Shown: positions 1,399 through 2,755 of the stretch, in pieces | Layout of the letters: each line of letters starts with the position of its first letter | How positions within the stretch are numbered: position 1 is the first letter of the stretch | Virus record (IMG/VR): IMGVR_UViG_3300029286_000011 | Direction: 5' to 3' (one strand) | Origin: a virus | Lineage: Duplodnaviria; Caudoviricetes | Length of the DNA: 64,000 bases | Notes under the pieces: model-generated | The model's database searches: none | The model's input: the letters and a program-made list of their open reading frames with translations, nothing else | What the model was told of the DNA's origin: nothing | Made by a program: the position numbers and the translations under genes

Positions 1399-2730
1399 CT
1401 ACACCGGTGGCGTTGCCACAGCGTACAGCTGCTGTAGCGACAAACCAGGATACGCCGACGGGAACGACGGCGGATCAATCAGATGCGTATGACCAGGCAG
1501 CGTCAAAGCGTGTGGCGGCGGCGGTTCCTGACCATAGTAGTTCAGGTACATGACCCTGTGCACGTGCGACAGGAACAATTTGCCAACCCACCGCATGGCT
1601 CGGCGGTTGATATGTCCCAGAGGCAACATGCACGGCCCGCAACCGGGCGTACCAACCTCCAACGTAGGTTCGGTTATGCCGCTAGCCACGTCAGCACGGT
1701 ACTTAGCGGCAGCCTCCAAGCTGACGCATCCCGTGTACCACTTGTAGGCGTCCGTGCTCACACCATAATCCTTATCACGCAGCTGTTTGGCAGCTTCAGC
1801 TACGTACCTTCCGGCAAGGTTGTTCGCCCACTCGTATTCCTTACGAGAGTAGTAGAACTTGCCGTAGAAGTCCGAATCCCGATGCGCGTTCTTGATGAAG
1901 CTCGGGACAGCCTTGCCGAGGACCAGCGTCTTGGCAAAGAGGCTGTAGGGCCTCAACGAAAAGACGCTGATGAGGTGCTCCTTCGTCAGCTTCTTCGGAT
2001 ACTTTCCGCCGCGCTGCCAGGCGATCAATCGACGGATGTTCTCTTCCTTGCGATTGGTTTGCCTGCACAGCTCAGTGAGCACCGCATCCTTATCGCCGCC
2101 GACAGCCTCGATAACGTTGGTCACAAGCTTAGTGGCTTTGACCTTACCGAGATGAACGACATTCGGATTGCAACCGGCAAATGTGTAGAAGTTTCCACAC
2201 GTCGGCGCACATCGAACATCGAACGTAGCCAAGGTTCCGGCAGCGATCTTGGGGCCGATTCCGGTCCAGCTCATGAGACAACGACTGACAGTGTACTGCT
2301 TGGCGAACTCATGCAGCACATGTGTCAGGTCGTTCTCCATTCGCTTCAAGTTGTCGTGGTACCACGAGTGTGGTGCCGACGGCCGATCAGTCTTCTTGTA
2401 CTGATTGATCTGATGGCCGATGCCAACGCGCATCTTCTGGTGGCCGTAAAGCCAGCGAACCAGACTCTGCGCCTGAAAGTGAGGCAGCAGTCGTCCAAAA
2501 GATCGCATCTGCTTGGACAACTTTTGCATCAGCTCGACATCGGCCGACATCTCGTCTTCAACGAAGAACTGTGTCGGATCTTCCGCCGCCAGTGCGTCGT
2601 TGACCGGCGGAACAGGCTCAGCTGCTTTTTCGACGGAAGCGTTCACAGCGGATTGCAAGGCCTCAGAGATGGTGTCGGTCTCTACCAACTTGGCCGGAAT
2701 GACTTTTTGCATTTTCGCTTTGCGTGCCAT
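1399..2730 (-). CDS. Nop-domain / IS110-related RNA-binding protein without nuclease or recombinase domain (TasA-like), 443 aa
   Basis: Has a coiled-coil segment (LVRWLYGHQKMRVGIGHQI), an HhH-like LMSWTGIGPKIAAG..FYTFAGCNP motif and a C-terminal GHINRRAMRWVGKLFLSHV motif, as in IS110/Nop proteins. There is no N-terminal DEDD RuvC domain and no SG catalytic serine loop after AGxxP. Confidence 0.75.
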   Translation of the reverse strand: MARKAKMQKVIPAKLVETDTISEALQSAVNASVEKAAEPVPPVNDALAAEDPTQFFVEDEMSADVELMQKLSKQMRSFGRLLPHFQAQSLVRWLYGHQKMRVGIGHQINQYKKTDRPSAPHSWYHDNLKRMENDLTHVLHEFAKQYTVSRCLMSWTGIGPKIAAGTLATFDVRCAPTCGNFYTFAGCNPNVVHLGKVKATKLVTNVIEAVGGDKDAVLTELCRQTNRKEENIRRLIAWQRGGKYPKKLTKEHLISVFSLRPYSLFAKTLVLGKAVPSFIKNAHRDSDFYGKFYYSRKEYEWANNLAGRYVAEAAKQLRDKDYGVSTDAYKWYTGCVSLEAAAKYRADVASGITEPTLEVGTPGCGPCMLPLGHINRRAMRWVGKLFLSHVHRVMYLNYYGQEPPPPHALTLPGHTHLIDPPSFPSAYPGLSLQQLYAVATPPV

Positions 2731-2755
2731 GATGTTGTCTGTCCTTTGGTTTTGG
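2730..2755 (-). promoter_or_regulatory. Copy of the array repeat overlapping the RBS and start codon of the Nop-domain gene
   Basis: Plus strand TGATGTTGTC at 2730-2739 is identical to the commonest array repeat. It is followed 7 nt later by TGGTT, the start of the other repeat. Minus strand reads AAACCA-AAGGACA-GACAACATCA-TG. Confidence 0.6.

What the first reader, a model, noticed from the sequence alone, without database searches (positions are those of the whole stretch)
2730..2755. Array repeat overlaps the RBS and start codon of the Nop gene: physical link and possible autoregulation
Seen: the minus strand reads AAACCA-AAGGACA-GACAACATCA-TG. That is an exact copy of the commonest 10-nt array repeat ending at the A of the ATG, preceded 7 nt earlier by AACCA, the 3' end of the other repeat. 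The Shine-Dalgarno AAGGA occupies the spacer position. Inference: the protein may bind this half-guide mimic in its own mRNA and block its translation when guides are scarce, or it is a relic of an ancestral adjacent array. Caveat: 9-nt matches arise by chance in Asp-Asn-Ile codons (6692, 21864), but a full match at this gene's start codon is unlikely to be random.
Basis: partly seen in the sequence, partly recalled or inferred. Interest (0 to 1): 0.8.

Follow-up and report, generated by a model that had tools for sequence, protein, structure and literature searches.

The report
Guide-array repeat at tasA start codon
In an uncultured lake jumbo phage, the gene for a TIGR-Tas RNA-guided DNA-binding protein begins exactly at the end of one intact repeat from its guide-RNA array, which lies 39 kb away; the copy is almost certainly array-derived, but a feedback role is untested.

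Summary
On the minus strand, GACAACATCA (2739..2730) ends on the A of the ATG of a TasA-type Nop-domain gene (1399-2730). It is preceded by AAGGACA, which carries the Shine-Dalgarno, and by AACCA. The 10-mer equals the loop repeat of a 36-unit TIGR array at 41.5-42.8 kb on the same strand, and 14 nt match one array unit exactly.

Chance is unlikely, about 2e-4 for this gene: 0 of 804 control start regions match.

- The copy is the second-commonest loop variant, not the commonest.
- The gap to AACCA is 7 nt; in the array it is 8, rarely 9, never 7.
- No 3' edge repeat follows, so this is a half-unit, not a guide.

In related loci, arrays very often abut tas, and 13 of 45 distinct loci have one directly upstream. 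The closest homologue carries a nearly identical loop repeat. An array-derived origin and the pairing of this gene with the remote array are therefore well supported.

Autoregulation is not shown. There are no close orthologues, no RNA data and no population variation. Across 32 loci without an upstream array, tas start regions resemble their own repeats only weakly, and one related leader has drifted. The feature is a modest new variant of TIGR-Tas architecture.

The parts
2730..2739 (-). Solitary exact copy of the TIGR loop repeat GACAACATCA; its last A is the A of the tas start codon
   Evidence: It matches 10/10, and 14 nt (2742..2729) are identical to the array unit at 42176.
2728..2730 (-). 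ATG start codon of tas (P0001)
   Evidence: It is the first start codon after the in-frame TAG at 2772..2770. Codons 1-60 have a coding signal of 0.41 nat/codon, against a mean of 0.22 for the phage's genes.
2740..2746 (-). 7-nt stretch AAGGACA in the 'spacer A' position; it carries the Shine-Dalgarno AAGGA (2746..2742), 11 nt before the ATG
   Evidence: In this phage the spacing is usually 6-8 nt, and only 3 of 38 control genes have 11 or more.
2747..2754 (-). Degenerate edge-repeat-like element CAAAACCA: it keeps the 3' AACCA (box C side) but lacks the 5' GAG
   Evidence: It matches AGTAACCA in 5 of 8 positions. The gap to the loop is 7 nt, against 8 or 9 in the array.
1399..2730 (-). tas gene: a 443-aa nuclease-less Nop/IS110-like protein (TasA type)
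   Evidence: phrog_4285 at E 3e-13. A family profile hits PDB 9mty at E 4e-25 (a chain an earlier scan note names TaTasR), TasH at 4e-13 and IS621 at 1e-7. About 120 of 165 homologue loci carry TIGR arrays.
1342..1379 (-). 17-bp hairpin followed by a T-rich tail, directly after the tas stop codon: a terminator-like end of the transcription unit
41496..42784 (-). TIGR array of about 36 units of 35 nt: edge (G)AGTAAYCA, 8 nt, loop GAYAACAKCA, 8-9 nt. It lies on the same strand as tas, 38.8 kb upstream in the direction of transcription.

Best explanation
The 25-nt leader of tas is a piece of TIGR array. It has a half-decayed edge repeat (only AACCA left), a spacer-A position that now serves as the Shine-Dalgarno, and an intact loop repeat whose final CA runs into the ATG.

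It most likely descends from an array-tas junction, or from a one-unit mini-array next to tas, of the kind seen in many related loci. It stayed with tas when gene and main array came to lie 39 kb apart. Today it simply is the gene's translation initiation region.

Shown: the sequence identity, its improbability by chance, the Tas identity of the gene, the match between this clade's loop repeats and the remote array, and the frequency of arrays abutting tas starts.

Inferred: the historical route, and that the perfect state of the loop copy reflects a recent origin or copying from the array (14-nt identity with one unit) rather than selection. Any docking of Tas on it is incidental in this reading.
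For: - The exact 10-mer, with 14-nt identity to one array unit, lies at the start codon.
- Chance is about 2e-4 for this gene.
- AACCA lies at nearly the array's spacing.
- The closest homologue locus, L003, has two TIGR units upstream of tas as well as a downstream array. Its loop is GAnAACAKCA, and its truncated edge repeat overlaps the tas stop codon.
- 13 of 45 distinct scored loci have an array ending 50-100 nt before the tas ATG, with the SD lying in or just after the last degenerate unit.
- In this window the array's own 3' end runs into the SD and ATG of the next gene at 41473.
- Xu et al. 2026 report TIGR units upstream of, flanking and even inside the 5' end of tas.
- No purA-neighbour locus in other phages carries tas, so the tas cassette is lineage-specific here.
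Against: - Typical array-tas junctions end with a truncated EDGE repeat followed by the SD, with the last loop repeat roughly 30-55 nt upstream. Here the SD precedes an intact LOOP repeat that touches the ATG, so this is not a simple leftover of the usual junction.
- The loop copy is perfect while the edge is 5/8 and the 3' edge is gone. Such uneven decay suggests constraint on the loop.
- The loop copy forces an SD spacing of 11 nt, unusually long for this phage. A neutral relic would be expected to lose that arrangement.
- No array remnant or tas fragment is seen elsewhere near either partner.
Confidence: 0.5

Rival explanations
1. The intact loop repeat is a selected operator for translational autorepression. 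Tas that is not loaded with guide RNA docks with one Nop domain on the loop repeat, through box D (GA) and box C (CA). Because the site spans positions -9 to +1, this blocks 30S binding at the start codon. Tas synthesis therefore falls when protein exceeds guide RNA.
For: - The site overlaps the start codon and lies directly after the SD.
- The loop copy is perfect although its flanks have decayed.
- It is kept despite a suboptimal 11-nt SD spacing.
- In the TasR structure each protomer reads one repeat through its box C/D nucleotides, and the loop repeat is read by one protomer alone.
- Apo SpTasH binds and cuts pre-tigRNA by itself.
- In 32 loci without an upstream array, tas start regions resemble their own repeats more than control start regions do. 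Five to six loci reach p<0.05 against 1.6 expected, with Fisher p 0.0015-0.0025.
- Own repeat profiles beat other loci's profiles, Wilcoxon p 0.011.
- L018 and L027 carry a 7/8 loop copy in the same register, and L052 has a 9/10 solo loop copy just 5' of its SD.
- There is a precedent in the homologous box C/D world: archaeal L7Ae binds a k-turn in its own leader (PMC5539422).
Against: - There is no binding, expression or conservation data for this phage.
- With same-locus controls the family signal is only borderline: tas ranks top in 7 of 21 loci against 3.2 expected, Wilcoxon p 0.067.
- 26 of 32 loci show nothing.
- The L015 leader, which closely resembles that of L018/L027, has drifted to 5/8 while its loop repeat is unchanged.
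- TIGR repeats (GAG...CCA) intrinsically resemble SD-spacer-ATG regions. The neighbouring purA-like gene also reads GATAACATTA|TG.
- No TIGR paper read here mentions autoregulation.
- Binding of a Tas dimer to a lone loop repeat has not been shown anywhere.
Confidence: 0.3
2. The match is a chance resemblance. An A/C-rich 10-mer happens to sit between the SD and the ATG, where A/C-rich sequence is common.
For: - The loop motif is somewhat start-region-like: 7 window genes have 8/10 or better, against 2.9 expected (p 0.06).
- A second exact copy lies antisense in a gene at 5818.
- The purA-like start has a 9/10 copy built from its SD.
- The finding was picked out post hoc.
Against: - 0 of 804 control start regions match exactly.
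- The estimate is about 2e-4 for this particular gene.
- The additional AACCA at near-array spacing and the 14-nt identity with one unit lower this further.
- The gene concerned is the array's own partner.
Confidence: 0.07
3. The half-unit acts as a CreR-like pseudo-guide. It is transcribed with the tas leader, loads into TasA, and directs it to a partially matching DNA site, so that the system's own expression is repressed at the level of transcription.
For: - TasA proteins act as RNA-guided transcriptional repressors.
- Degenerate mini-CRISPRs do exactly this for Cas proteins (bioRxiv 10.1101/2023.03.10.532045).
- The pseudo-spacers joined as B+rc(A) have an exact 13-nt core match, GGCACGCTGTCCT, at 45689-45701. 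That is 60-74 nt inside the 988-aa gene that precedes the array on the same strand.
Against: - No 3' edge repeat follows and there is no 5' box D, so the unit cannot be matured like a tigRNA.
- Spacer A is one nt short.
- The 13-nt match has roughly a 2% chance expectation after the alternatives tried. It was found post hoc, and the target geometry was derived by me from the reported overhangs.
- There is no match near tas itself.
Confidence: 0.05

Closest known systems
Dual-repeat TIGR-TasA systems with arrays upstream of, or overlapping the 5' end of, tas (Faure et al. 2025, PMC12045711; Xu et al. 2026, bioRxiv 10.64898/2026.09.09.750476)
   Same: Both have a Nop-domain Tas protein and a dual-repeat array with box C/D-like repeat ends on the same strand. 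Array sequence runs into the tas ribosome-binding site or start. [quoted passage not shown]
   Different: Here the main array is 38.8 kb away and only a half-unit remains at tas. An intact loop repeat, not the usual truncated edge repeat, touches the ATG, and the SD lies in the spacer-A position.
Archaeal L7Ae translational autoregulation through a k-turn in its own 5' leader (PMC5539422; PMC6298567)
   Same: A protein of a guide-RNA RNP would bind a copy of its RNA recognition motif placed in the leader of its own mRNA. The system is evolutionarily related, since box C/D snoRNPs share the Nop domain with Tas.
   Different: L7Ae binding and regulation were measured; nothing has been measured here. 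The motif here is a compact loop repeat read by the Nop domain, not a k-turn read by L7Ae.
CreR and other CRISPR repeat-like regulatory RNAs: degenerate mini-arrays that autorepress cas genes (bioRxiv 10.1101/2023.03.10.532045; PMC10120712)
   Same: A degenerate, solitary piece of the guide array lies next to the effector gene and is proposed to feed back on effector expression.
   Different: CreR is a processed guide that targets promoter DNA. This half-unit lacks the elements needed for maturation and would act, if at all, as a binding site in the mRNA.
Phage translational operators covering a start codon (MS2 coat protein on the replicase hairpin; T4 RegA, gp32, gp43) - from general knowledge, not checked here
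   Same: In each, an RNA-binding phage protein occludes an initiation region.
   Different: Those operators are experimentally defined, and they are not copies of a guide-array repeat.

Membership tests
TIGR-Tas system (locus level) | Effector with a Nop/IS110-type RNA-binding domain of the Tas family | tested here: met
   phrog_4285 at E 3e-13. A profile of P0001 and 21 homologues hits PDB 9mty at 4e-25 (a chain an earlier scan note names TaTasR), TasH at 4e-13 and IS621 at 1e-7. The GIGP..AG and KLFLSH.H motifs are conserved.
TIGR-Tas system (locus level) | Array of two alternating short repeats with two short spacers per unit of about 35-36 nt, both repeats ending in a box C-like CA | tested here: met
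   About 36 units of 35 nt, with edge (G)AGTAAYCA and loop GAYAACAKCA.
TIGR-Tas system (locus level) | Array adjacent to tas | tested here: not met
   The array lies 38.8 kb from tas, and no array occurs within 10 kb on either side of tas. Cognate pairing is instead supported by the near-identical loop repeat in the closest homologue's adjacent arrays.
Complete tigRNA unit (is the leader a guide?) | 5' edge repeat with box D and box C at array spacing | tested here: not met
   CAAAACCA matches 5 of 8 positions and has no 5' GAG. The gap is 7 nt, against 8 or 9 in all array units.
Complete tigRNA unit (is the leader a guide?) | Loop repeat | tested here: met
   10/10 match to GACAACATCA.
Complete tigRNA unit (is the leader a guide?) | 3' edge repeat after spacer B, needed for maturation (processing occurs inside full edge repeats) | tested here: not met
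   The sequence after an 8- or 9-nt gap, AAAGCGAAA or AAGCGAAAA, matches GAGTAAYCA in 2-4 of 9 positions.
Autoregulatory translational operator | The protein's RNA recognition motif overlaps the SD or start codon of its own mRNA | tested here: met
   The loop repeat spans -9 to +1. This is positional evidence only.
Autoregulatory translational operator | The protein binds the site and lowers translation | not testable with these tools
   No RNA-protein modelling or experiment is available, and no RNA runs are listed.
Autoregulatory translational operator | The motif is conserved in orthologues and tracks their own repeats | tested here: inconclusive
   No orthologue is more than 38% identical. 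Across 32 distant loci there is a weak enrichment: Fisher p 0.0015-0.0025 with pooled controls, 0.067 with same-locus ranks, and 0.011 for own versus other repeat profiles. L015 is a counter-example.
CreR-like degenerate mini-array | The pseudo-spacer matches the effector's own promoter region | tested here: not met
   There is no match near tas. The only hit is a 13-nt core match at 45689-45701.

The most novel reading that the evidence does not exclude
TasA controls its own synthesis at the RNA level. Guide-free protein docks on a solitary loop-repeat operator that covers its start codon. This would be the first RNA target and the first feedback loop described for a TIGR-Tas effector. It would mirror L7Ae/k-turn autoregulation in the related box C/D RNPs, and would let a phage balance protein against a guide array encoded 39 kb away.
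Probability: 0.25. Interest if true: 0.7.

Novelty: new variant of a known kind. Interest (0 to 1): 0.4.

Why it matters
The repeat copy gives independent sequence evidence for which of the phage's two Nop-like genes partners the orphan 36-guide array. An earlier scan note reports a second Nop-like gene 22 kb beyond the window; I did not check that.

It also shows that TIGR repeats can persist as single units fused to a gene start. That matters for annotating arrays and for reconstructing how array and effector drift apart in large phage genomes.

If the loop copy proves to be a Tas-binding operator, it would add RNA-level feedback to a system known only as a DNA binder. It would also give engineers a 10-nt handle for Tas-responsive translation control. 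As it stands, the feature is a small and plausible but unproven regulatory lead.

Tried and rejected
- **Close relatives.** GenBank phages gave no match by DNA or protein. IMG/VR had no close relative of tas or of the upstream 337-aa gene. purA-like neighbours in 80 other phages carry no tas. The 5.8-billion-protein search gave nothing above 38% identity. A close-orthologue test was therefore impossible.
- **Population variation.** Two other contigs carrying the identical protein (L001, L002; nine such contigs were found) are 99.98-100% identical to the window where they overlap it, and identical in the leader.
- **Sequencing runs.** No RNA holder was listed. Contigs of four further lake runs laid on 1800-3700 showed no differences, and the low word shares reflect low coverage, not divergence.
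- **RNA structure.** The leader has no structure beyond shuffles, z 0.19.
- **Self-targets of the 34 array guides.** Within the window there was nothing at 1 mismatch or fewer, and one hit at 2 mismatches, which is noise level.
- **tas remnants near the array.** None.
- **Alternative start at Met61.** This would move the motif 180 nt from the start. I rejected it because codons 1-60 are clearly coding and Met61 has no SD.
- **Read-through of the single in-frame TAG between the upstream gene and tas.** No suppressor tRNA was found in the window or in the 21-kb locus L001, and being in the same frame is a 1-in-3 coincidence.
- **A general 'C at -1' signature of tas starts.** Not significant, 32% against 26%.
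- **Replication of the family test in GTDB genomes.** Only 7 loci passed the repeat-calling filter, so the test was underpowered and is not used.
- **Whole-genome search.** No genome is held for this window.

Full report
**What is there.** Read on the minus strand, the 39-nt gap between the stop codon of a 337-aa gene (TAG, 2772..2770) and the ATG at 2730 ends with CAAAACCA-AAGGACA-GACAACATCA-TG. The ORF 1399-2730 encodes a 443-aa protein, P0001.

P0001 matches a phage 'transposase' family, phrog_4285, at E 3e-13, and only weakly matches Pfam Transposase_20. A profile of P0001 and 21 homologues hits solved Tas structures: 9mty at E 4e-25 (a chain an earlier scan note names TaTasR), TasH at 4e-13, and the IS621 recombinase at 1e-7. 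P0001 has no N-terminal nuclease domain, so it is of the TasA type.

At 41496-42784, on the same strand, lies a TIGR array of about 36 units of 35 nt. Each unit is edge repeat (G)AGTAAYCA, 8 nt, loop repeat GAYAACAKCA, then 8-9 nt. This is the dual-repeat architecture described by Faure et al. 2025.

**Check of the observation.** The 10-mer GACAACATCA occurs 8 times in the array, once at 2739..2730, and once antisense inside a gene at 5818. Shuffles expect 0.18. Identity with the array unit at 42176 runs for 14 nt.

Three details need correcting:
- The copy is the second-commonest loop variant (8 copies against 12 of GACAACAGCA).
- The edge-to-loop gap is 7 nt here, whereas in the array it is 8, or 9 in two units, and never 7.
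- The upstream element keeps only the AACCA end of the edge repeat (5 of 8 positions), and nothing edge-like follows.

The leader therefore holds half a unit, not a guide.

The ATG at 2730 is the first start codon in the frame. Most homologues begin about 55 residues later, but codons 1-60 have a stronger in-frame coding signal than the phage's average gene. The overlap with the true start codon therefore stands.

The SD AAGGA sits 11 nt before the ATG, whereas this phage's genes mostly use 6-8 nt. The loop copy is wedged between the SD and the start. A 17-bp terminator-like hairpin follows the tas stop codon.

**Is it chance?**
- None of 804 SD-bearing start regions of non-tas genes from related loci matches the loop 10/10.
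- Column-permuted versions of the motif give an exact hit in any of the 77 start regions of the window in 1.5% of trials. Dividing that 1.5% by the 77 start regions gives about 2e-4 for this particular gene.
- The AACCA at near-array spacing, and the fact that the gene is the array's own partner, push chance lower still.

The motif is mildly start-region-like: 7 genes reach 8/10 or better against 2.9 expected. The neighbouring purA-like gene reads AAGGATAACATTATG, a 9/10 copy built on its SD. Some caution is therefore due, but chance is a poor explanation.

**Comparative evidence.** No close relative exists. The best homologue is 36-38% identical. GenBank phages and IMG/VR hold nothing close. 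Two other contigs carrying the identical protein (L001, L002; nine such contigs were found) are 99.98-100% identical to the window where they overlap it.

I therefore used 160 distant Tas loci. About 120 of 165 carry arrays next to tas on the same strand.

The closest homologue locus, L003, has arrays on both sides of tas. Its loop repeat GAnAACAKCA is almost the window's. Two units lie upstream of its ATG, and a truncated edge repeat overlaps its stop codon. This independently pairs P0001 with the remote array.

In 13 of 45 distinct scored loci, an array ends 50-100 nt before the tas ATG. It usually ends as loop, spacer, truncated edge (GAGCG...), SD, ATG. Array sequence running into the tas initiation region is therefore ordinary in this family.

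Xu et al. [quoted passage not shown] The window differs in three ways: the main array is far away, an intact loop rather than a truncated edge touches the ATG, and the SD lies in the spacer-A position.

I built profiles of each locus's own repeats and scored tas start regions in 32 distinct loci that lack an upstream array.
- Against 804 pooled control start regions, five to six loci reach p<0.05 where 1.6 are expected. Fisher combined p is 0.0015-0.0025.
- With the stricter same-locus control, tas ranks top in 7 of 21 loci against 3.2 expected, Wilcoxon p 0.067.
- Own profiles fit better than other loci's profiles, p 0.011.

Individual cases point both ways. L018 and L027 have a 7/8 loop copy ending on the A of the ATG, and L052 has a 9/10 solo loop copy just 5' of its SD. 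However, the L015 leader, which closely resembles that of L018/L027, has drifted to 5/8, and most loci show nothing.

TIGR repeats (GAG...CCA) also resemble SD-spacer-ATG by their nature. The signal is real but weak. It fits decaying remnants of former upstream arrays as well as it fits function. A replication set from GTDB genomes yielded only 7 usable loci.

**Mechanism.** The literature makes docking plausible.
- Each Tas protomer reads one repeat through its box D/box C nucleotides, and the loop repeat is read by a single protomer.
- Apo SpTasH binds and cleaves pre-tigRNA on its own, through Y289/H296.
- TasA acts as an RNA-guided transcriptional repressor.
- None of the TIGR papers read here mentions autoregulation.

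A lone loop repeat covering -9 to +1 could thus act like the L7Ae k-turn operator (PMC5539422). But nothing shows that a single repeat suffices, and no RNA data exist.

My best reading, at 0.5, is an array-derived junction or mini-array remnant that now serves as the initiation region. A selected autorepression operator comes second at 0.3. The uneven decay (perfect loop, ruined edges) and the costly SD spacing are the main arguments for the second reading.

A CreR-like pseudo-guide (0.05) is unlikely, because the unit cannot be matured. Its only support is a post hoc 13-nt match at 45689-45701. Chance gets 0.07.

**Verdict.** Autoregulation is a reasonable, testable and unproven idea. The feature is a new variant of TIGR-Tas locus architecture, not a new kind of system.

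Earlier scan notes on this genome had already identified the array and the distant TasA. Notes on other genomes describe repeats fused to gene starts. I re-derived these points here from the sequences.

Noticed in passing
window 1310-1324 (-): The purA-like gene just downstream of tas starts AAGGATAACATTATG. GATAACATTA is a 9/10 copy of the loop repeat and ends on the A of the ATG, the same register as in tas, but here it is built from the SD itself. This may only show that the loop motif resembles this phage's start regions.
   Followed up: partly
window 41471-41510 (-): The array's 3' end has no terminator. The last degenerate loop (GACAACAGAA), an SD-like GAGGGG in the spacer-B position, and a degenerate edge repeat ACTAATGA that contains the ATG of the next gene (41006-41473) follow one another. 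That gene's initiation region is therefore embedded in the last array unit.
   Followed up: partly
window 45689-45701 (+): The leader's pseudo-spacers joined as B+rc(A) match a 13-nt core, GGCACGCTGTCCT, 60-74 nt inside the 988-aa NUDIX-domain gene that precedes the array on the same strand. The chance expectation is roughly 2%, the match was found post hoc, and the target geometry was inferred.
   Followed up: partly
window 42040-42320 (-): The array contains duplicated multi-unit blocks. The spacer pairs AGCCAAGC/CGACTGTT and TGCTCCCA/CAATGTCC recur, and there is a 105-nt period. This suggests the array grows by tandem duplication of units.
   Followed up: no
P0001 residues 398-416: At the conserved C-terminal P-Y-x6-H motif, P0001 has His407 where most homologues have Tyr. 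The motif's spacing matches the SpTasH processing dyad Y289/H296. His414 is invariant. Whether P0001 can still process its array was not tested.
   Followed up: no
window 2731-2772 (-): The upstream 337-aa ORF and tas are in the same reading frame, separated by one TAG and 13 sense codons. No suppressor tRNA was found in the window or in L001, so this is probably coincidence.
   Followed up: partly
L058, L080, L254, L288 (tas starts): A subfamily of tas genes beginning ATGCAC shares a leader made of a hairpin followed by GGAGAG(n)ACCA before the ATG. This is a decamer of the family's commonest loop-repeat type, although these loci's own loop repeats differ (GATAGAAACA or GACAGAAACA).
   Followed up: no
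L027 5453-5969: The upstream array of this locus lies in a frame that stays open into tas for about 480 nt. This may be an example of the intragenic arrays reported by Xu et al. 2026.
   Followed up: no
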